A stretch of 64,000 nt of DNA from Squalus acanthias (Eukaryota), in assembly GCA_030390025.1 (NCBI GenBank), contig CM059432.1, forward strand, positions 77,502,001-77,566,000, read 5' to 3'. The translations under genes and the position numbers were made by a program. Below the pieces are notes generated by a model, which saw only the letters and a list, made by a program, of their open reading frames with translations, ran no database searches and was not told the DNA's origin. Shown here piece by piece: positions 1-11,722 of the stretch; the stretch's first letter is position 1, and each line of letters begins with the position of its first letter.

Positions 1-430
1 TGACCTGGCACTCGAGATAATCTATTCTTGTTTTAAGGTGACTGGAGATTTCCTGGCTTTCTTGGTGCAACTCATTTAACTTCTTAATGAGCACTTCCCC
101 TCCAGAAACCTTCTCATCCATTTCTCCCTCTAAATGACTGATTCGAGCTACTAGCGCTGTAATGGTCTGGTTTGAAATCTGAACCTGCCTTTTGTAACAC
201 ATAAGCCAGACTGCTTTCTCAAGTGTCTTTCTATGTTCTTTACTATCTGTCCACCTTTCGGCTGCCTCTAGCGGGCTTTTATCCGCTAACAATTCACTTA
301 TCCATTTCTTAGTTAAATTAACCTTTCCGAACACATAATCTGCTATCTTTTCCTGCATAACATTTCGTACAGTCATTCCAAAGTCTAACACACTACCCTC
401 TCGCTGCCAGTGTCCTGCCGCGGTCGCCAT
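1..430 (-). CDS. gag: 5' part of gag of the next tandem unit (truncated by window edge)
   Basis: Near-identical to 7685-8114; ATG at 430 corresponds to ATG at 8114 (offset 7684). Confidence 0.88.
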   Translation of the reverse strand, partial: MATAAGHWQREGSVLDFGMTVRNVMQEKIADYVFGKVNLTKKWISELLADKSPLEAAERWTDSKEHRKTLEKAVWLMCYKRQVQISNQTITALVARISHLEGEMDEKVSGGEVLIKKLNELHQESQEISSHLKTRIDYLECQV

Positions 431-549
431 TTTCTGTAAGGGATTCTGACCCTGCGTGTCTCGCAGCCTGTGAGATTCACGCGGCTCTGTGCAGCCTGTA
501 TGTCAGTGCGGGTCTAGGCCTTGTTGCCTGTTCTGGTCTCCAGCCAGTC

Positions 550-2090
550 TGGGAACACTAGACACACCTGTGAGTGGTTCGAATCACTCGCCCTTACGGT
601 TCTAGACACTGGACTTAGATGCGAGAGCAGTAATGGAGATGAAACTCATGTAGACTCGGTTGAATGGTACGAAATGGAAAATCTTTATTGCATGATACTT
701 AAGATTATGAAATACATGTCATAAGCACAGATTAATGACAGTACAATCTTACAAGCAGTTATATAGTCGATCTTAGGGAAACGAGGAACGAACGGCACAT
801 AGTAAATAGGGGCACACATTACAAATATCCTTAATCCTTAAACCCTCCCCTATCAATATCTATCCTAACTAGATTCGTAGGATTTCGAGACTCATGCTCA
901 CCACTCGTGATAACTCGGAGAAATTCCGAATAGCTGATCGGATGTTTTTCACCGCAGCACCCACGTGTCGGTCAGGAGATCTCCTGGTCCCACTTGTTTA
1001 CTTGCTTCTGCTGCTCCGGCTAGCAGGCTGGACCGTCTGCTGTGATGAAGACCTGTGTTGGTTGGTTTAACAGGTACTTTCCGAGCACAGTTGTCAATAT
1101 CATCGATGTGATATGTTCTTTGCAAGTTCGAAGAAGTCTTCCTGGCAAGGAAAACTTGGCTATTCGACCTACAGGCGCGGTCGGGATTTACTGACCGTGG
1201 CGATGGATATGGTCTTCCTCTCTTCTCATCTCATCTCATCTCATCTCGGGCCTTTGGTTCCGCTGCCAGTTACCAACATAGGTCTTCGTTACGCGACACG
1301 AGGTAGATCCGAATGGATCAGAAAGTTCAACAGTCTTTTTCAAAAAGGCAACAGGCAAGCAGGAGCCCGACTACGAGTACACAGGAGCAGCCACGAGGTT
1401 ACGAAATAAGATAAGAGCACAGGAGCAGCCACGATGATAAGAGTCGATCGGATAAGAGAAAGATGGACGGTTTGGAGCCTGCAATTATAGTGCAAAATCT
1501 TCCGTTTCCCGCCCAACCTTAATGTCCATTCTTTTGTTTAGGGTCTGGCGCTCAAATGTCTTGTATGGGTGATCTCCGTTCTTAATGGGTTTCGGGGCTA
1601 CTCGTAAATGTCTGAGTACCTGTTAATATTTCTCCCATTGTTAAATCGGTCGGTGTTCTCCCTGGAGGGGTTGTGGGGCTTCCAAGTGTTTTGTATAACT
1701 ACCTGCTAACGGCTCTCTCATCGTAGAGTCGTTGGGATTTTACATATTAATGTCTTTTGGATGGGCCCTTGATTACTCGGTACAATAGCTTTCATTTGTA
1801 CCTGGGAGACCGATTTCAGTATTTATGTGTATACTGCAAACCCATAATGTCTCGTGTATTATCTTCACTGTGCTGAATCTTAATCGATCTTGCACAAATG
1901 TTTATTGGAACGCCATCTTGTCTGCCTGTTGAAAAGTCTAGAATGTTCTGTCACGAGGTGCGGCGGCCATTTTACAGGCTGCTTGTGTCCACTTTAAACC
2001 TGGCAGCATTCTGCTGAAATAAAAGCTGTTTGAACGAAACTCTGTGTTTTCTCCTTATTAATAAAATCGCGATATATTGCGAATTCTACA
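550..2090 (-). repeat. LTR shared between tandem units (~1.5 kb; U5 end uncertain, ~550-569)
   Basis: Starts TGT at 2090 directly after PPT; AATAAA at 684-689 (minus); copy at ~8234-9775. 3' boundary is inferred only. Confidence 0.72.
684..689 (-). promoter_or_regulatory. Polyadenylation signal AATAAA in LTR (also 8368-8373)
   Basis: Plus-strand TTTATT about 120-135 nt from the inferred LTR 3' end. Confidence 0.6.
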
Positions 2091-2102
2091 GTCCCTCCTG
2101 TT
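2091..2102 (-). promoter_or_regulatory. Polypurine tract
   Basis: Minus strand AACAGGAGGGAC immediately precedes the TGT LTR start; absent next to the outer LTR at 9775. Confidence 0.7.
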
Positions 2103-2540
2103 GATGCGAATAACTCCGCTTATCGTATCAAAAATCATAGTGGTGAGCAATATTATCTCGATTTCTCTCCGAATCCAGCAAATTAATCCCATAACTTTAA
2201 CCTAGCTAGGGTCTCTGTGTCGTCCTCATTTCCCAAGAAAATTACATTTTATATCACCGTAGGCATTATTTGCCCTTAAACTTACACCACTTGTTTTCCT
2301 TCCCGGCGTAACCAGGCCGATGCCTCTCGTATCACCTGTATATTCATCTTTTATTCAGGGAAAGGAAAAACAAAACCCAAAACCAAACAATCAATTCTAA
2401 CTGTAACACCATCACCAAAATAATCAACACCAACTCTTAAAACATGTCGAGTTCCAAACGTATGTACAATCTCTGAAAATCATGATCGAGTACAAACTTC
2501 CGCGGCGCACGTGGCGAGCGGGAGTGACGCCATTTTCCGA

Positions 2541-4892
2541 TTACACGGTGCTTTCATCGTGCACGCGCACGTAACGTTCTCGCCACTCTCCCGTGTTTTC
2601 ATGCTTGGTGAGGCGTTTGTCTCTTTTACAATGTACGACCAATAGGTACACTACAATAAACACTTGGCATACGACTAAAATGTGGGAGGCTATTCTGATC
2701 CATGAAGGCACTTCAATATTAGTGAACAGATTCCACCACGGTGGAACTACTATATCCAAAATGTCTGTTCCTATTTCGACAGTTTTCTGCTCTAATGTGT
2801 AAAAATGTTTCTGTGACACCGCGACGGCTTTTAAAAGTTTGGTGAGGTGTTCAGGGAGAGGGGGAATGAGGTATCCAAAATGCGCGACGAATCGCTGCAA
2901 GTCGGTGAAATTCTCTTTTACTGTGAGATGAACAGTGGATGGTTCAGGGATTGGGATAATTCGCTGTTGTGCTACTTGAACTTCCGCCCTGGGTTTAAAA
3001 CAGAAACTGCTGTCACTCACCGGACACCGGCTACGGTTTCCATGCTGGTAGTGTTGCGCTGCAGTGGTAACACAATATGTTCCACCCCCGATGTATGCTA
3101 CCTGCGGAGGCACATGATCTTGTGCCATTGCCTCCATGGTGCAATTCATGGACTTGGCGCCAGTCGTTCTGAACCCGCACTGTGGTGTTAAAAAGGCATT
3201 CAAGTGCTGGGGGCACAGTATTATGTGTGCTCCCCTGCCACGACAACCAGAGAGATCTGTACCTGTCATCGTTTGCTCCCAGCGGATGACGTAAGGTGGA
3301 ACCGCTGCGTAACGAATGTGGGCTCCCCCCTGAATGACACCAATGTTCTCTACCCGATATACCGGGGCGGGCTTTGCTGTGTCGCCCAAAACCGGCATGC
3401 GTAATACTATTCCCATAATAGTATGGTTTGAACGTCCGCAGTCCACGGGGACTGGGTAAGCTTCTGAAGCTAGCCTGAGCTGGCACGGACTTAATGCGTT
3501 CTGAAAAGGGTGGAGCGCCCGCAGGTGTTTGTTACTTATCCAGGACGGAACCAAACCTTGTTTTAAATCCTCCAAATTACTGCGGCCCTCGCCCAGTAAC
3601 CACGCCCCGTAAAGCACGCACACCTCGTTCTGCGCAGCTTGATCGGATGCATTCCGATCTTCCCTAATCAGGGCATTTACCGTCTTTGCATGTTTCTCCA
3701 ACTCTGCTATAATTTCCTTTAAATGGAGAGTCATGGCTTGGTCCTCGTGTAAACCTGACCCTACCACTTTATTCTCATCTGTTAGAATGTCTTTTAATTG
3801 TGTCTTTAAACCATTAATCTGGGTCTGCAGCTCCACACTGTCTAGAGCGTTGACCACAGATGTACCCGTGTTAAAAGCAGTGAACGCATCGTTCACCAAA
3901 CCCCTTCTTTGCCTCCCTGCTTGATTCAGAACTTCCTGTGGTGCGGTGTACAAACTTGTTTTATCAATTTCCGCGAAATCGAATTCGTAAAATTGTCTGA
4001 ACATCTTGGTCAACAGGACCTGATACAACTGTTCCGTCTTTTTGGGGCACCACTCTGGTAACCGCACCTCGGTGAGATTTAAAATCACCGAGGCCACCGC
4101 GTAATGTACTCCCTGAAATAGTATCTGGTCTGTGGGGACCAGTACCAAACCATTCCCGGGTCCCTTACTAGTTTTAGGGCACCCTTCTTCCTCAGCTAGA
4201 ACCACCGGAATCGTGGGCGGGGCTTTGCGTGGGCGCGTAATGAGCTCAGTGGCATTTACTGGGATCGGGGAGAATGGGGCTCCGCACCCCCTGGTGCTCG
4301 CATCCCACCTCATCCCCTGTCCGTTATCCTGCCATTGATTAATGAAAAATATGGAGATGCCTTTGGGGCAAACGTACTTTGACCCCCACATACATACATA
4401 AATTCCCTCGTCCGGTTCCCACCATTTGTCCCAACAGACTTTCACTTGTCCGTTTGTCCCCGTAATTGTCCGATGGGTATTATTACCCAGTCGTTCCCAC
4501 TCGACCGAAGAGTTCCTCATAGTTTTGCTCAGCTTTCGCAGCCACCACCATCGGCTCAATGGGACCTTCCCACTACAAGTCAAACAAATCCGTTTGCCGA
4601 CGGTGACGCTAATCCTGGGTGCGATGATCCTTACTTTGGGGCACATTAAAGAAGTCTCTTTGTAGGCAAACCCCGATGTGCTAGAATACTCCGTTGAGTT
4701 CGTTCCCAGCCATCCTGGCCACCTTCCCTTGTGGAAATAGGTGCTGGTCTCCTCTGCCTCCCGTCTTCCGGTCCCATCCACCGCGATGGGGGCCGTGTCC
4801 CCGGAACATCCAAACACCACGACATCCTTGGTGCGGCCTCGATAGGCCAATCCACATCCGATTGCCACGAGCAATACTAGAATTCGTTCCAT
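2541..4892 (-). CDS. env: Envelope glycoprotein, ~783 aa from ATG 4892: signal peptide, Ig-like domain, furin site, F-like class I fusion subunit, TM anchor
   Basis: MERILVLLVAIGCGLA signal-like segment; LTC..WWW..DEGIYVC Ig motif; RQRR/GLVNDAFTAF at 3903-3914; heptad repeats; Cys-rich region; C-terminal hydrophobic ILVVCQVFIVVYLLVV; many N-x-S/T sites. ORF track opens at GTG 5075. Confidence 0.85.
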   Translation of the reverse strand: MERILVLLVAIGCGLAYRGRTKDVVVFGCSGDTAPIAVDGTGRREAEETSTYFHKGRWPGWLGTNSTEYSSTSGFAYKETSLMCPKVRIIAPRISVTVGKRICLTCSGKVPLSRWWWLRKLSKTMRNSSVEWERLGNNTHRTITGTNGQVKVCWDKWWEPDEGIYVCMWGSKYVCPKGISIFFINQWQDNGQGMRWDASTRGCGAPFSPIPVNATELITRPRKAPPTIPVVLAEEEGCPKTSKGPGNGLVLVPTDQILFQGVHYAVASVILNLTEVRLPEWCPKKTEQLYQVLLTKMFRQFYEFDFAEIDKTSLYTAPQEVLNQAGRQRRGLVNDAFTAFNTGTSVVNALDSVELQTQINGLKTQLKDILTDENKVVGSGLHEDQAMTLHLKEIIAELEKHAKTVNALIREDRNASDQAAQNEVCVLYGAWLLGEGRSNLEDLKQGLVPSWISNKHLRALHPFQNALSPCQLRLASEAYPVPVDCGRSNHTIMGIVLRMPVLGDTAKPAPVYRVENIGVIQGGAHIRYAAVPPYVIRWEQTMTGTDLSGCRGRGAHIILCPQHLNAFLTPQCGFRTTGAKSMNCTMEAMAQDHVPPQVAYIGGGTYCVTTAAQHYQHGNRSRCPVSDSSFCFKPRAEVQVAQQRIIPIPEPSTVHLTVKENFTDLQRFVAHFGYLIPPLPEHLTKLLKAVAVSQKHFYTLEQKTVEIGTDILDIVVPPWWNLFTNIEVPSWIRIASHILVVCQVFIVVYLLVVHCKRDKRLTKHENTGEWRERYVRVHDESTV

Positions 4893-5180
4893 CCTTCCTT
4901 GGTTCCTGTGATCAGATAGAATGAGGTAGCCAGCCTCGCAAGAGTCTCTGGCTTTTGTGAAGGGTGAGCGGGTCCCCTGACCTCGCCTCACGTAAACTTC
5001 AACGTTCGCTGAATAAACTTTAACTAAACCTATCTTTAAAGCTCCCATCATTTTATCGTTTTCTGTTAAAAACACTACAATCTTAACCTTATCAAAAAAC
5101 TATAAACTTAACCTTGAACTATTAACTTAAAACTTAAAACTTATAACTTTACAGTGCCGCCCGTTCTCAGGGCGGCCCCT

Positions 5181-6302
5181 TTAAATTCTGAGAAGGCTGC
5201 TGCGAGCTCTTCCCGACGGTGGGAGGGCACTGACCCTTCCCTCTGATCTGCCGCAGCCTGTTGCTGCTGCGATGTGGCCGGCCTGTATCTGGGTTATCTT
5301 AACCTTAACTCTACGCCTTGGGGCAGTCTGGGGACATGACCACATCCTCCTGGGCTGGGGTTCTCTACTTGACCTACGGGGAGTTGCTATGGGCGGGGGT
5401 TCCGTGACGGACGGACCGGGTTCCGAGACTTCCATCGGGATGACCTGGGGTTCCATCACAGTCGCTGGCTCCGCCTCCGCTGACTCCGCCTCCCTAACCT
5501 CGGGGCTTGCAGTTTGTGGCCCCGCCCTGCTTGGCCCAGCAGGCGGCCCTTCACTCGTGATCTCTGCCTCCCCCGAGGACGGGACGTTCAAAGCGGGCGG
5601 CCACATCTCTGGGAGCCACACCGGTACTCTCTGTGCTCCCATAGCGGCTGGCCCTGCCTCCCCTAGCTCCTCCCTCCTGTCTTCGGGACCTGCAGCTTGT
5701 GTGTCCACCCTGTGTGGATCTCTACCTGCAGCCCCCGTTCCCTCCATATCGTAAATGGGACCGTTCCTGAGAAACCACCCGTCGTCATCACTATTCTCAT
5801 CTGCACTGTCCTCATCTGACCCGGGTACCCTGAATTCTTCCTCATCTAACCCCCAATTCCAGAAAAACGCTGCATGATCTTCCGGGATGTCCCTTCCCCT
5901 GATGCAAGCTGCTATGCCTGCCTGTGTGCCTTGTGGTCCTACCTGGGGCTGTGCTTTCCCACTGGCGGGATTTACCCCTGTAGTTTTCCCTTGCGCACCT
6001 GGCTGGTACAGTTTGCATTGGTTTACATCCTCATACTCCCGGCTTTTGGCTACCCTGTAGGCTGCTTTTATCTCTCTAAGCTGCGCTTCTAGCCTGAGCA
6101 CGTCTAACTTTCCCATTGATCGGGCGTTCTCCTCCCGCAGGGCCTGCTCTCTAAGCTGCCCTTCCAGCCCATCTATTTTCCCTATTAAGCGGGCGTTCTC
6201 CTCCCGCAAGGCCTGCTCTTTTAACCTGGCCTCCTCACCGCAGACCCCCTCCTGTGCGTGTCTTTTAAAAGGACACAGGTAGGCAGGCTGCGTGGGCTCT
6301 AG
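5181..6302 (-). CDS. ORFX: unknown coiled-coil + acidic + Pro-rich protein, in frame with gag (probable readthrough extension)
   Basis: Open from the codon after the gag TGA (6302) to TAA at 5181; the ORF-track start at 6209 is TTG, not ATG. Confidence 0.75.
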   Translation of the reverse strand, partial: LEPTQPAYLCPFKRHAQEGVCGEEARLKEQALREENARLIGKIDGLEGQLREQALREENARSMGKLDVLRLEAQLREIKAAYRVAKSREYEDVNQCKLYQPGAQGKTTGVNPASGKAQPQVGPQGTQAGIAACIRGRDIPEDHAAFFWNWGLDEEEFRVPGSDEDSADENSDDDGWFLRNGPIYDMEGTGAAGRDPHRVDTQAAGPEDRREELGEAGPAAMGAQRVPVWLPEMWPPALNVPSSGEAEITSEGPPAGPSRAGPQTASPEVREAESAEAEPATVMEPQVIPMEVSEPGPSVTEPPPIATPRRSSREPQPRRMWSCPQTAPRRRVKVKITQIQAGHIAAATGCGRSEGRVSALPPSGRARSSLLRI

Positions 6303-8114
6303 TCATTGGGTACTATTAGACGGTCCTGCGGCACCTACGGGGCCGGTTGCGACCGCCACCTGTCCACGCGCATTCAAGATTAGATTGCGCATGGCTCCTA
6401 ACACTACTTCGAGGTCGTCAGGAGGGGTGGGTGCCTTAGCTTCCTTAGCCGGGACAGGCGCCTGGGCTCGGACCGCGGGATTTTTATCCTTGGAATCCTT
6501 CCAAGGGTTCCTGCAATGCTTGCGCCAGTGCCCTGTCTTCCCACACCCGTAACAAGCATTACCTGCCTGTGGGGCGCGATTACCCTCCTGATGCCACTCT
6601 CTTTGATACGGGGCTGCGGGTCGTACCTCATGTACTCTTCCCTTAAGGGGACGTGTTGCCATACCCCTTATATTGCGATATCCTAACGTGAGTCGATTCA
6701 AGACCGACTCTTCCGTAATGTTGGGGTCATTGGGATCAAACCATGCTTTTGCCTGCTCTCTGACGGCTGGTAAACTGTTGGCTATTATGCACCTAAGCCA
6801 ATGAGTTAAAGCGGTGCCTTCCACATCTTCGCGCTCTGGCGCACCTAGGCAGCTGCGCTCATAAACTGGCCACAGCCTGTCGGCAAAAACCTTCGGGGGT
6901 TCTCCCTCCATCTGCACTGTCTGTCCCACTCTAGCAAACGGACCTTCATCGTTCGCCCCCAACACTTCCAGGACCTCATCCCTCAATTCCTCATAAGTCT
7001 TGGTTCCCCTCTTGCTCTCGCCTGAGAGACACTGAAGAACCGAGCTGTCTAGTGAGAACAGCAGCATTTTTGCTGTCTCCCCATCATCGCAGCCGTTAAT
7101 GGCTGCGGCTTGCTCAACTTCTCTGAAATGTACGGAAGGGTCGTCTGACTCGGTCAGCTTCCGTACGTGATTTATCATAGCTCTCAGCTGGTGTGAGCTG
7201 TGAGGCAACACCAGCTGTCCGAGGAGATCCCCCGGTTCTTCCCCACCGTTTCTGTTTGGGCCCCTTTTAATGCCCGTTACTGGATACAACGGTCCCTTTC
7301 CTACTTCTTTTTCAATGGGCTCTTTTGTTTCTTCCATTGCTTCCTCCCTTACCCAGGTTTCCGAATAGCTGGGTGGCGCGGAGGGCGCAGTGGCTACTAC
7401 TTCTTCTGCTTTGCTTGGTGGGGATTTCTTAAACTTCTCACTTACTAGCGGCTGGTGTGCTGACGGACTGATCAGGCACACCATGCCGTTCGCTTTGTTT
7501 ACGGCCTTCTTGAGGTGCTCTATCTCCCTTTGGCAGGCGCTATGGTCGGCTCCCTCAAACTTATCCTCAAGGGCCAACTTATATGCCGCCCTAACCCCCG
7601 TTAAGCTCTCTTCTTGAGTTCTTATCTGGGCAGCTTGGCGGTTACATCTTTCCTTTAACCTGCTCTCATTCAACTTTGCCTCAGTGACCTGGCACTCGAG
7701 ATAATCTATTCTTGTTTTAAGGTGACTGGAGATTTCCTGGCTTTCTTGGTGCAACTCATTTAAATTCTTAATGAGCACTTCCCCTCCAGAAACCTTCTCA
7801 TCCATTTCTCCCTCTAAATGACTGATTCGAGCTACTAGCGCTGTAATGGTCTGGTTTGAAATCTGAACCTGCCTTTTGTAACACATAAGCCAGACTGCTT
7901 TCTCAAGTGTCTTTCTATGTTCTTTACTATCTGTCCACCTTTCGGCTGCCTCTAGCGGGCTTTTATCCGCTAACAATTCACTTATCCATTTCTTAGTTAA
8001 ATTAACCTTTCCGAACACATAATCTGCTATCTTTTCCTGCATAACATTTCGTACAGTCATTCCAAAGTCTAACACACTACCCTCTCGCTGCCAGTGTCCT
8101 GCCGCGGTCGCCAT
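6303..8114 (-). CDS. gag: Gag-like protein, 603 aa
   Basis: N-terminal coiled coil, PPSY late-domain-like motif, capsid-like central region, CCHC knuckle CYGCGKTGHWRKHC at 6513-6554; first ORF after the LTR. Confidence 0.88.
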   Translation of the reverse strand: MATAAGHWQREGSVLDFGMTVRNVMQEKIADYVFGKVNLTKKWISELLADKSPLEAAERWTDSKEHRKTLEKAVWLMCYKRQVQISNQTITALVARISHLEGEMDEKVSGGEVLIKNLNELHQESQEISSHLKTRIDYLECQVTEAKLNESRLKERCNRQAAQIRTQEESLTGVRAAYKLALEDKFEGADHSACQREIEHLKKAVNKANGMVCLISPSAHQPLVSEKFKKSPPSKAEEVVATAPSAPPSYSETWVREEAMEETKEPIEKEVGKGPLYPVTGIKRGPNRNGGEEPGDLLGQLVLPHSSHQLRAMINHVRKLTESDDPSVHFREVEQAAAINGCDDGETAKMLLFSLDSSVLQCLSGESKRGTKTYEELRDEVLEVLGANDEGPFARVGQTVQMEGEPPKVFADRLWPVYERSCLGAPEREDVEGTALTHWLRCIIANSLPAVREQAKAWFDPNDPNITEESVLNRLTLGYRNIRGMATRPLKGRVHEVRPAAPYQREWHQEGNRAPQAGNACYGCGKTGHWRKHCRNPWKDSKDKNPAVRAQAPVPAKEAKAPTPPDDLEVVLGAMRNLILNARGQVAVATGPVGAAGPSNSTQ

Positions 8115-8233
8115 TTTCTGTAAGGGATTCTGACCCTGCGTGTCTCGCAGCCTGTGAGATTCACGCGGCTCTGTGCAGCCTGTATGTCAGTGCGGGTCTA
8201 GGCCTTGTTGCCTGTTCTGGTCTCCAGCCAGTC

Positions 8234-9775
8234 TGGGAACACTAGACACACCTGTGAGTGGTTCGAATCACTCGCCCTTACGGTTCTAGACACTGGACTT
8301 AGATGCGAGAGCAGTAATGGAGATGAAACTCATGTAGACTCGGTTGAATGGTACGAAATGGAAAATCTTTATTGCATGATACTTAAGATTATGAAATACA
8401 TGTCATAAGCACAGATTAATGACAGTACAATCTTACAAGCAGTTATATAGTCGATCTTAGGGAAACGAGGAACGAACGGCACATAGTAAATAGGGGCACA
8501 CATTACAAATATCCTTAATCCTTAAACCCTCCCCTATCAATATCTATCCTAACTAGATTCGTAGGATTTCGAGACTCATGCTCACCACTCGTGATAACTC
8601 GGAGAAATTCCGAATAGCTGATCGGATGTTTTTCACCGCAGCACCCACGTGTCGGTCAGGAGATCTCCTGGTCCCACTTGTTTACTTGCTTCTGCTGCTC
8701 CGGCTAGCAGGCTGGACCGTCTGCTGTGATGAAGACCTGTGTTGGTTGGTTTAACAGGTACTTTCCGAGCACAGTTGTCAATATCATCGATGTGATATGT
8801 TCTTTGCAAGTTCGAAGAAGTCTTCCTGGCAAGGAAAACTTGGCTATTCGACCTACAGGCGCGGTCGGGATTTACTGACCGTGGCGATGGATATGGTCTT
8901 CCTCTCTTCTCATCTCATCTCATCTCATCTCATCTCGGGCCTTTGGTTCCGCTGCCAGTTACCAACATAGGTCTTCGTTACGCGACACGAGGTAGATCCG
9001 AATGGATCAGAAAGTTCAACAGTCTTTTTCAAAAAGGCAACAGGCAAGCAGGAGCCCGACTACGAGTACACAGGAGCAGCCACGAGGTTACGAAATAAGA
9101 TAAGAGCACAGGAGCAGCCACGATGATAAGAGTCGATCGGATAAGAGAAAGATGGACGGTTTGGAGCCTGCAATTATAGTGCAAAATCTTCCGTTTCCCG
9201 CCCAACCTTAATGTCCATTCTTTTGTTTAGGGTCTGGCGCTCAAATGTCTTGTATGGGTGATCTCCGTTCTTAATGGGTTCGGGGCTACTCGTAAATGTC
9301 TGAGTACCTGTTAATATTCTCCCATTGTTAAATCGGTCGGTGTTCTCCCTGGAGGGGTTGTGGGGCTTCCAAGTGTTTTGTATAACTACCTGCTAACGGC
9401 TCTCTCATCGTAGAGTCGTTGGGATTTTACATATTAATGTCTTTTGGATGGGCCCTTGATTACTCGGTACAATGGCTTTCATTTGTACCTGGGAGACCGA
9501 TTTCAGTATTTATGTGTATACTGCAAACCCATAATGTCTCGTGTATTATCTTCACTGTGCTGAATCTTAATCGATCTTGCACAAATGCTTATTGGAACGC
9601 CATCTTGTCTGCCTGTTGAAAAGTCTAGAATGTTCTGTCACGAGGTGCGGCGGCCATTTTACAGGCTGCTTGTGTCCACTTTAAACCTGGCAGCATTCTG
9701 CTGAAATAAAAGCTGTTTGAACGAAACTCTGTTTTCTCCTTATTAATAAAATCGCGATATATTGCGAATTCTACA
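8234..9775 (-). repeat. 5' LTR of the element (U5 end uncertain)
   Basis: Identity to the first copy ends exactly at ...GAATTCTACA (9775), followed by CR1 sequence. Confidence 0.75.
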
Positions 9776-10667: not shown

Positions 10668-11722
10668 GTAACAACAACCTGCATTTATATAGCACCTTTA
10701 ATGTAGTAAAACATCCCAAGGCACTTCACATGAGCGATTACCAACCAAATTTTGACACTGAACCACATAAGGAGATAGTAGGATAGGTGAGGTAGGTTTT
10801 AAGGCGTGTCTTAAAGGATGAGAGAGAGGTAGAGAGACAAAAATGTTTGGGAATGGAATTCCAGAGCTGAGGGCCTAGGCAGGTGAAGGCACGGCCGCCA
10901 ATGGTGGAGTGAAGAAAATCAGGGCTGCTCAAGGCCAGAATTGGAGGAGCACAGAGTTCTCGGAGGGTTTTAAGGCTGGAGGAGGTTGCAGAGATAGAGA
11001 TATGGGTTTCAGCAGCAGATGAGCTGAGGCAGGGGTGGAGATGGACAACGTTACAGAGGTAGAAGTAGGAGGTCTTGGTGATGGAGAGGATATGGGGTCC
11101 GAAGCTCAACTCAGGGTCAAATAGGACACCACGTTTGCAAACAGTCTGGTTCATCCTCAGACAGCGGCCAGGGAGAGGGATGAAGTTGGTGGCTAGGGAA
11201 CGGAGCTTGTGCTGGGACCAAAGACAATAGCTTCGTAGTTCCCAATATTTAATTGGAGGAGATTTCTACTCATCCTATACTGGAAGTCTGATAAGCTGTG
11301 TGACAAATCAGAAATGAGAAGTCGCACAACACCAGGTTATAGTCCAACAGATTTATTTAAAATTACAAGCTTTCGGAGCTATCGCCCCTTCTTCAGGTAC
11401 AGTTACAATGAGTGAATCTACAAAAGTTCACAGAATATAAACACAGAAAATGCAGAGATACAATCTTTCCTTACACTCTGCATTTTCTGTGTTTATATTC
11501 ACTTGTAGATTCACTTATTGTAACTGTACCTGAAGAAGGGGCGATAGCTCCGAAAGCTTGTAATTTTAAATAAATCTGTTGGACTATAACCTGGTGTTGT
11601 GCGACTTCTCATTTTTGTCCACCCCAGTCCAACGCCGGCATCTCCGCATCATGACAAATCAGAGGCAGTGGAGGGGTCAAGAGAGGTGGGGTTGAGGTGG
11701 AGCTGGGTGTCGTCAGCATACA
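10668..11722 (-). mobile_element. L2-like LINE 3' fragment interrupted at 11313-11651
   Basis: GVLFDPELSF..HI..ITKT and IGGRAF..GPQLWNS peptides; GCTATATAAATGCAGGTTGTTGTT tail. Confidence 0.75.
11313..11651. mobile_element. Palindromic Penelope-derived insertion with 12-bp target duplication
   Basis: Arms 11312-11457 and 11477-11614 are inverted copies; TGACAAATCAGA at 11301-11312 and 11652-11663; hammerhead-like core in each arm. Confidence 0.7.

What the first reader, a model, noticed from the sequence alone, without database searches (positions are those of the whole stretch)
4380..4640. Immunoglobulin-like domain at the Env N-terminus
Seen: ISVTVGKRICLTCSG..WWWLR..DEGIYVC, with Cys-Cys spacing of 61 aa and a D-x-G-x-Y-x-C motif. 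Known: this is the V/I-set Ig signature; paramyxovirus F proteins have no such N-terminal domain. Inference: a captured host Ig domain used for receptor binding or immune mimicry, giving a one-chain attachment-plus-fusion protein.
Basis: partly seen in the sequence, partly recalled or inferred. Interest (0 to 1): 0.75.

Follow-up and report, generated by a model that had tools for sequence, protein, structure and literature searches.

The report
Ig domain on paramyxovirus-like retroviral Env
A young, high-copy retrovirus in what is likely a shark or ray genome carries an envelope gene in which a predicted antibody-like (Ig) domain sits in front of a predicted paramyxovirus-type fusion machine; the domain likely serves to attach the virus to cells and was probably taken from a host gene long ago, a new pairing of two separately known tricks.

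Summary
Env residues 84-185 (window 4338-4643, minus strand) carry Cys106, Trp117 and D-E-G-I-Y-V-C167. The full motif arose in 3 of 20,000 shuffles. Cys, Trp, Gly, Tyr and Cys are kept in 7 of 7 spanning homologues, under purifying selection. Pfam, ESM Atlas, AlphaFold2/Foldseek and PDB profile searches all point to an Ig sandwich, each weakly (pLDDT 61, Z up to 6.6). Residues 245-700 fold like paramyxo/pneumovirus F. The gene is env of an approximately 11-kb LTR retrovirus with at least 150 near-identical copies. It has a tRNA-Arg primer site and a class III-like RT, probably snakehead-retrovirus-like rather than lokiretrovirus. Related Envs put other Ig-like, non-Ig or no modules in the same slot, as expected of an exchangeable receptor-binding domain. 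No host donor gene could be identified, and binding is untested. Both halves have precedent: a SIRP-derived IgV domain on an alpha-like Env, and F scaffolds with added binding domains (foamy Env, coronavirus spike). The combination was not found in my literature searches. Verdict: real, new variant of a known kind, interest 0.5.

The parts
4338..4643 (-). Ig-like beta-sandwich domain of Env (residues 84-185), with B-strand Cys106, C-strand Trp117 and F-strand D-x-G-x-Y-x-C167, plus extra Cys84, 103, 153 and 175
   Evidence: Pfam Ig_3 E=0.021; Atlas top hits Ig at 0.90-0.91; AF2 8-strand model; Foldseek/VIA Ig hits
2541..4892 (-). env ORF, 783 aa, open
4845..4892 (-). Likely signal peptide (residues 1-16)
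   Evidence: hydrophobic N-terminus in the sequence; helix 2-17 in the model; no signal-peptide predictor run
4644..4844 (-). Conserved N-terminal segment (residues 17-83) of unknown fold, with Cys29
   Evidence: 74-79% identical to skate relatives; pLDDT under 50
4182..4337 (-). Linker (residues 186-237) with Cys203 and a proline-rich stretch at about 206-229
   Evidence: sequence; disordered in the model
2718..4181 (-). Paramyxo/pneumovirus-F-like fusion core (residues 238 to about 725)
   Evidence: Foldseek E=5.6e-11 to hPIV3 F; VIA Z 11.6, rmsd 5.1, 292 aligned, model 245-683 vs Nipah F 34-444
3843..3914 (-). Furin-type site RQRR (327-330) followed by the putative fusion peptide (331-350)
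   Evidence: position before the long helix in the model
2622..2705 (-). Transmembrane helix (about residues 730-757)
   Evidence: hydropathy peak; helix 730-766
8119..9775 (-). 5' LTR, about 1.66 kb, TG...CA
435..2090 (-). 3' LTR, shared with the next unit of a tandem pair; 99.3% identical to the 5' LTR; purine-rich tract just upstream
8096..8113 (-). Primer-binding site complementary to the 3' end of host tRNA-Arg(TCG)
6303..8114 (-). gag ORF with a coiled-coil-like N-terminal part and one CCHC knuckle; ends in TGA in frame with pol
5181..6302 (-). pol remnant: most of pol (about 3.6 kb) is missing and about 245 bp of other sequence stands in its place

Best explanation
The segment is a predicted Ig-superfamily (V-like) domain placed in front of a predicted paramyxovirus-F-type fusion core in the Env of a young, high-copy endogenous retrovirus, and it likely acts as the cell-attachment module, probably captured from a host gene long ago. 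Shown: one ORF with the order signal peptide, N-terminal segment, Ig motif domain, proline-rich linker, F-like core with RQRR, and TM; conservation and purifying selection of the domain; different or absent modules at the same place in related Envs. Inferred: after furin cleavage the Ig domain would stay on the F2-equivalent surface subunit, point outward on a flexible linker and bind a cell-surface partner (about 55%). The F-like core would then fuse membranes, triggered by that binding or by endosomal pH. Origin by an ancient IgSF gene capture is about 65% likely; the donor is no longer recognisable.
For: Motif chance 3 of 20,000. Cys106, Trp117, Gly163, Tyr165 and Cys167 are kept in 7 of 7 spanning sequences; D161 is D in 4 and E in 3. 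Against an older subfamily in the same genome pN is 0.25-0.26 with pS saturated at 0.75-0.78 (2 of 2 copies tested). Pfam Ig_3 scored E=0.0075-0.031 in 3 of 3 window-type genomic segments and 0.0085 in P0010. In the Atlas, 9 of the 10 best family-bearing hits share the Ig clan, while the N-terminal module of P0012 gave no hit. All Foldseek rows shown are Ig domains (21 matches at E of 0.001 or better). The VIA wide search is led by TREM2, Z 6.6, rmsd 3.1, 96 aligned. The profile aligns over the whole domain with the CRTAM V domain, E=0.15. Independent relatives match antibody VH: frog P0019 E=0.005 including a WGxG-like G strand, shark P0013 E=0.054; P0034 matches V-set at E=0.045. The F core starts only at residue ~245. 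The module varies across the Env tree; P0034 (V-like) and P0036 (none) are sisters at 98/95 support. Precedent for this slot being a receptor-binding domain.
Against: Every Ig score is below curated or significance cut-offs: Pfam 15-17 bits against a cut-off of 30; pLDDT 61 for the best model and 41-48 for the other four; Z under 8 with sequence identities of 1-16%, and non-IgSF beta-sandwiches (phage baseplate proteins) tie at Z 6.0-6.2. No host IgSF protein appeared among the 51 hits at E of 0.001 or better in 1.84 billion representatives or in a search with the N-terminal region (1 hit of 27 candidates). The N-terminal modules of different clades show no detectable homology to each other (10 of 10 pairs at hhalign probability 3.1% or lower), and a cross-clade profile lost the Ig signal. 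P0036 and P0045 lack any module, so the core may bind cells by itself. No binding, expression or fusion data.
Confidence: 0.55

Rival explanations
1. The Ig domain is real but acts as an immune decoy or shield. It would engage or mimic a host IgSF receptor (CD200-, SIRP- or nectin-like) or cover the fusion core, while attachment is done by the F core or the unassigned segment 17-83.
For: Relatives without a module exist (P0036, P0045). The best fold and profile matches are immune receptors (TREM, CD300, CRTAM, pIgR). The domain carries two N-glycan sites (N127, N137).
Against: Those matches are weak ties and such receptors are common in PDB. The position and proline-rich linker copy the RBD layout of gamma-type Env. 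The domain is as conserved as the F2 core against skate relatives (74-76% vs 76-85%).
Confidence: 0.2
2. The domain is an Ig-like fold inherited within viruses, for example an old viral RBD related to the IgV-like RBD-C of gamma-type Env and moved between Env lineages, and was not taken from a host gene in this lineage.
For: No host donor found. RBD transfer between Env groups is reported. F-like Env sits beside at least two different integrase types in this genome.
Against: It keeps the canonical B-F cysteine pair and D-x-G-x-Y-x-C; the paper says RBD-C lacks the B-F disulfide. No viral RBD appeared among the listed fold hits, though such a list does not exclude one.
Confidence: 0.17
3. The segment is a generic disulfide-bonded beta-rich structural domain that resembles Ig by chance or convergence and only helps folding or trimer stability.
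For: All scores are sub-threshold; non-IgSF sandwiches tie in the VIA search; only 1 of 5 AF2 models exceeded pLDDT 50.
Against: Several methods and three separate clades point to Ig; motif chance is 1.5e-4.
Confidence: 0.08

Closest known systems
Env-Dbi / RBD-C SIRP-like (alpharetrovirus-like Env with a SIRP-derived IgV domain; bioRxiv 10.1101/2024.03.17.585361)
   Same: Canonical IgV-type domain with the B-F cysteine pair at the front of a retroviral Env, proposed as a captured receptor-binding domain (abstract, passages and part 1 of the Discussion read).
   Different: There the donor is clear from sequence and the Env is orthoretroviral; here no donor is recognisable and the core is F-like (class Ib).
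RBD-C of gamma-type Env (MLV, FeLV, EnvP(b)1, ZFERV)
   Same: Independently folding N-terminal IgV-like domain ahead of the rest of SU, exchanged between Env lineages.
   Different: RBD-C lacks the B-F disulfide and sits on a gamma-type SU/TM; this domain keeps the canonical motif and sits on an F scaffold.
Class Ib fusogens with built-in receptor binding: foamy virus Env and coronavirus spike (PMC11468914)
   Same: F scaffold plus an added binding module in one precursor; in spike the module is N-terminal, as here (passages).
   Different: The foamy RBD is inserted before the furin site and has its own fold. The passages read do not describe an IgSF-motif domain as the added module. F's own domain II has an Ig-type fold, but it lies inside the core, not at 84-185.
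Lokiretrovirus Env (PMC7947760)
   Same: gag-pol-env element with tether plus RNase H and an Env similar to paramyxo/pneumovirus F, with signal peptide, RxKR-type site, fusion peptide and TM.
   Different: The main text has 0 occurrences of 'immunoglobulin'. Published RTs differ in motif from this RT. None of the six cartilaginous-fish genome rows found is marked positive.
Snakehead retrovirus (SnRV)-like ERVs, clade Huo / class III
   Same: Coiled-coil Gag, one zinc knuckle, in-frame gag-pol stop (SnRV traits from PMC2717909); reported in elephant shark, coelacanth and amphibians, the hosts of this element's closest Pol relatives. The Arg-tRNA primer site and ~11 kb size of SnRV are recalled, not read.
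   Different: No labelled SnRV sequence could be compared. The gag stop here is TGA, not amber. The Env fold of SnRV itself was not checked.

Membership tests
Ig superfamily V/I-set domain | B- and F-strand cysteines about 55-75 residues apart | tested here: met
   Cys106 and Cys167, 61 apart; kept in 7 of 7
Ig superfamily V/I-set domain | C-strand Trp 10-15 residues after the first Cys | tested here: met
   Trp117, invariant in alignment A4
Ig superfamily V/I-set domain | D-x-G-x-Y-x-C tyrosine corner | tested here: met
   DEGIYVC; G, Y and C in 7 of 7, D or E at the first position
Ig superfamily V/I-set domain | Two-sheet Ig beta-sandwich topology | tested here: met
   8-strand model, moderate confidence (pLDDT 61); Foldseek hits all Ig; Z up to 6.6
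Ig superfamily V/I-set domain | Score above the curated Pfam cut-off, and set assignment (V vs I) | tested here: inconclusive
   Ig_3 15-17 bits against 30; no V-set or I-set hit for the window domain
Host-captured IgSF domain | Identifiable host donor gene with significant similarity | tested here: inconclusive
   No significant host hit; the own-genome search was filled by 150 viral copies
Receptor-binding domain of Env | Binds a cell-surface receptor and is needed for entry | not testable with these tools
   Inferred from position and module variation only
Class Ib (paramyxo/pneumovirus F-like) fusogen | F-type domain I-III fold | tested here: met
Class Ib (paramyxo/pneumovirus F-like) fusogen | Furin site, fusion peptide, heptad helices, C-terminal TM | tested here: met
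Lokiretrovirus | gag-pol-env between LTRs with tether plus RNase H | tested here: met
   Pfam architecture of the 89%-identical Pol P0069
Lokiretrovirus | Env similar to Mononegavirales F | tested here: met
   by fold; no PF00523 hit by sequence
Lokiretrovirus | RT falls in the lokiretrovirus clade | tested here: inconclusive
   No labelled reference in the tree. The motif argues against: P-F-G in 21 of 21 YVDD places of the supplement vs P-Q-G-F here. Not filed as a member.
SnRV-like / clade Huo class III ERV | Arg-tRNA primer-binding site (SnRV trait recalled) | tested here: met
   18-nt site matching host tRNA-Arg(TCG) plus CCA
SnRV-like / clade Huo class III ERV | Coiled-coil Gag, single zinc knuckle, in-frame gag-pol stop | tested here: met
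   weak coiled-coil family hits and one zf-CCHC at E=0.29; in-frame TGA in 3 of 3 copies
SnRV-like / clade Huo class III ERV | RT groups with SnRV | tested here: inconclusive
   RT forms a clade with frog and coelacanth elements outside the gamma/epsilon-like rows; best PDB match foamy RT 168 bits, then MLV-type 141, Ty3 110; no SnRV reference available

The most novel reading that the evidence does not exclude
A whole lineage of class III fish and amphibian retroviruses uses a paramyxovirus-type fusion core with an open N-terminal socket, and has repeatedly and independently filled it with host Ig-superfamily domains. In at least one frog lineage the domain is an antibody-like V domain complete with a J-type strand, which would mean capture from a rearranged antigen-receptor mRNA and use as the viral attachment protein.
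Probability: 0.2. Interest if true: 0.8.

Novelty: new variant of a known kind. Interest (0 to 1): 0.5.

Why it matters
It shows the modular rule proposed for class Ib fusogens (a minimal F core plus an add-on binding module) at work inside one retroviral Env family, with natural variants carrying Ig, non-Ig or no module on the same core. That makes the family a natural series for asking how a fusion protein gains a receptor-binding domain. It would also extend host-Ig capture by Env from one mammalian case to an old aquatic lineage. As a side result, it suggests that F-like Env is not confined to lokiretroviruses and foamy viruses but also occurs in probable SnRV-like class III ERVs of cartilaginous fishes.

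Tried and rejected
Host donor search: phmmer on PDB gave best E=1.3 (antibody VL) and 1.4 (JAM-A); the 1.84-billion-protein search gave only Env relatives; the N-terminal region search gave 1 hit, an Env fragment; own-genome searches returned only viral copies. Alignment A3 was spoiled by a zinc-finger overhang from P0004, so its PDB search was discarded; the hhalign runs with A4 were dominated by core overhang and are not used for the Ig question. The cross-clade profile A6 misaligned the modules and found no Ig. The full-length AF2 model left most of residues 1-234 at low confidence, so the domain was folded alone. The first working label 'lokiretrovirus' was dropped after the RT motif comparison and the primer-site result. 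Expression: no RNA holder was listed; the one true RNA run laid 0 reads, which is no test, and three contig sets of unrecorded type covered 30 of 30 bins, which shows presence only. No viral RBD or foamy Env was listed among the fold hits, which excludes nothing. No earlier finding of this scan matched. Two relevant papers were not held (PMC9972966; PMC190236). No complex prediction was run because no candidate partner exists.

Full report
Observation. The window's minus strand holds an open frame at 2541-5099 whose first ATG (4892) gives a 783-residue protein, P0001. The quoted motifs are all there: Cys106, Trp115-117 and DEGIYVC ending at Cys167, 61 residues after Cys106. The full Ig pattern occurs at this one site in six frames of the window and in 3 of 20,000 shuffles of the protein.

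Is it an Ig domain? Each test is weak, and they agree. Pfam gives Ig_3 at E=0.021 for the segment, E=0.0075-0.031 for 3 of 3 window-type genomic segments and 0.0085 for P0010, all under the 30-bit cut-off; P0002 and P0006, scanned whole, gave no Ig hit. The ESM Atlas returns Ig clusters at 0.90-0.91, with 9 of the 10 best family-bearing hits in one clan; the tool warns that shuffled proteins reach 0.9 in 4-10 of 100 cases. AlphaFold2 on an 8-sequence alignment gives eight strands at mean pLDDT 61, with the other four models at 41-48. Foldseek's listed PDB matches are all Ig domains, best E=3.8e-4. The unbiased VIA search of 48,161 chains is led by TREM2 (Z 6.6, rmsd 3.1, 96 aligned), with TREM1, CD300lf and pIgR close behind, but phage baseplate sandwiches tie at Z 6.0-6.2 and nothing reaches Z 8. 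A profile of seven homologous segments aligns end to end with the CRTAM V domain at E=0.15. I put the Ig fold at about 90%, V-like more than I-like.

Conservation. In 7 of 7 sequences that span the domain (the window, two older copies from the same genome, two skate proteins, one sawshark protein and one unnamed protein) Cys106, Trp117, Gly163, Tyr165 and Cys167 are kept. Against the older subfamily, synonymous sites are saturated (pS 0.75-0.78) while pN is 0.25-0.26, so the domain was under purifying selection.

The rest of the protein. The full-length model is confident in much of residues 240-650. It matches paramyxo- and pneumovirus F: Foldseek E=5.6e-11; VIA Z 11.6, with model residue 245 aligned to F residues 25-38. 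So everything before residue ~240 is an addition to F. Among viral models the best matches are lispivirus-type, fish filovirus, baculovirus F and walleye retrovirus glycoproteins. RQRR at 327-330, a hydrophobic peptide after it, long helices and a TM at about 730-757 complete the class I layout. A proline-rich stretch separates the Ig domain from the core.

The element. LTRs of about 1.66 kb lie at 8119-9775 and 435-2090 and are 99.3% identical. The second is shared with another unit 7.7 kb on. This copy lacks most of pol; longer copies (about 11 kb spacing) carry PR, RT, tether, RNase H and IN, with no further gene-like ORF of 150 aa or more besides gag and env. The own-genome search scored 150 of 5,508 candidates; all 150 were 98-100% identical over the domain and 148 had no stop in it. 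The primer-binding site matches host tRNA-Arg(TCG). The closest named Env relatives are from a skate (76%) and sharks, so the host is likely a cartilaginous fish. RT is closest to foamy RT in PDB and groups with frog and coelacanth elements at 51-54% identity, outside the gamma/epsilon-like rows (34 of 120 listed hits were used and no labelled reference was available). Published lokiretrovirus RTs show P-F-G at 21 of 21 YVDD places of the supplement, against P-Q-G-F here (300 of 318 pages were readable). None of six cartilaginous-fish rows found there is marked positive. Coiled-coil Gag, one knuckle and an in-frame gag-pol stop fit SnRV (PMC2717909 passages), and SnRV's Arg primer site is recalled. 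I read the element as probably SnRV-like class III, not proven.

The slot is modular. A tree of the F core used 21 rows: 20 chosen by length from the window protein and its 51 hits, plus P0068. The N-terminal region differs by clade. The window's clade has this Ig domain. P0013 (bamboo shark; its source names it Ig-like) matches VH at E=0.054. P0019 (frog) matches VH at E=0.005 through a WGxG-like last strand. P0034 matches V-set at E=0.045 and lacks the cysteines. P0048 resembles P0019 by alignment only. P0012 and P0023 have a cysteine-rich module with no Ig signal. Two further modules in this genome (L022/L027 and L026) gave no Pfam hit in 3 of 3 scans. P0036 and P0045 go from signal peptide straight into the core, and P0036 is sister to P0034 (98/95). 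None of 10 pairwise module comparisons shows homology (probability 3.1% or lower), though a short 'V-x-x-x-x-x-x-x-C-x-T-C'-like stretch recurs. One ancient capture with decay and repeated captures cannot be told apart.

Mechanism. The most likely reading is an attachment domain on a flexible linker feeding an F-type fusion core. The architecture, conservation and modularity are shown. Outward display, receptor binding and triggering are inferred from the analogy to gamma-type RBDs and coronavirus S1. Host capture is plausible from the canonical motif and the antibody-like relatives, but no donor was found.

Against what is known. PMC11468914 (passages) states that F is a minimal scaffold that takes receptor-binding modules at its N-terminus (coronavirus spike) or internally (foamy Env). 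bioRxiv 2024.03.17.585361 (abstract, passages and part 1 of 2 of the Discussion; supplements not seen) reports IgV-like RBDs exchanged among gamma-type Envs and one SIRP-derived IgV capture; it has 0 occurrences of 'paramyxo' or 'shark'. PMC7947760 (passages, section 5, supplement searches) describes F-like Env without mention of Ig. Searches for the combination found nothing relevant: searches gave 0 papers; one search gave 1 unrelated paper; some searches gave listings from which the papers above were picked. Also seen as passages only: PMC13524379, PMC9040795, PMC12440569, PMC6001957, PMC4422223, PMC13709493, PMC4977317, PMC11089739; and part 1 of 6 of bioRxiv 2021.11.23.469661 (73). The library lacks most subscription journals, including the SnRV and cartilaginous-fish foamy virus papers, so prior description cannot be excluded.

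Verdict. The feature is real. It is a new variant of a known kind: an Ig-superfamily module on a class Ib fusion core in a probable class III ERV family of cartilaginous fishes and amphibians. Interest 0.5, rising to about 0.8 if repeated capture, including an antibody-type V-J domain, is confirmed.

Noticed in passing
P0019 residues 85-186 (frog Env relative): The N-terminal module aligns with antibody heavy-chain V domains through a WGxG-like J-type strand (E=0.005); possible capture of a rearranged or VJ-type Ig domain.
   Followed up: partly
window 4740-4844 (-), Env residues about 17-50: In the family profile this segment resembles the last two strands of a V domain with a GxGT-like motif (nanobody, domain E=0.12), and residues about 184-197 weakly resemble V framework 2; possibly a remnant of a second Ig domain, possibly chance.
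   Followed up: no
window 6026-6270 (-): About 245 bp replaces most of pol and encodes coiled-coil repeats in frame. L031 matches across the same junction and contigs of other runs cover it, suggesting a pol-less subfamily that keeps gag and env open.
   Followed up: partly
window 1-9775 and L014: Tandem proviral units share one LTR; tandem spacings of about 7.6 kb and 11.0 kb recur elsewhere in the genome.
   Followed up: partly
window 8096-8114 (-): The first ATG of the gag frame overlaps the primer-binding site, and the frame stays open upstream into the LTR.
   Followed up: no
L022:757-2961, L027:2859-3872, L026:1427-3247: Older ERV families in the same genome carry the same F-like core with different N-terminal modules, next to an integrase unlike that of the window's family.
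   Followed up: partly
BFVD hits of the full Env model: Walleye epsilonretrovirus Env (WEHV1, WDSV), a fish filovirus glycoprotein and aquatic herpesvirus proteins match the F-like model.
   Followed up: no
G000:C26 about 39.0-42.2 Mb (L033, L034): Long tandem arrays with a 1.62-kb period carrying the tRNA-Arg(TCG) 3' motif; 422 exact matches genome-wide; L033 also holds a tRNA-Ser gene.
   Followed up: no
window 11309-11617: Inverted-repeat element (115-nt arms, 98% complementary), found also in L014 and L031; likely a MITE.
   Followed up: no
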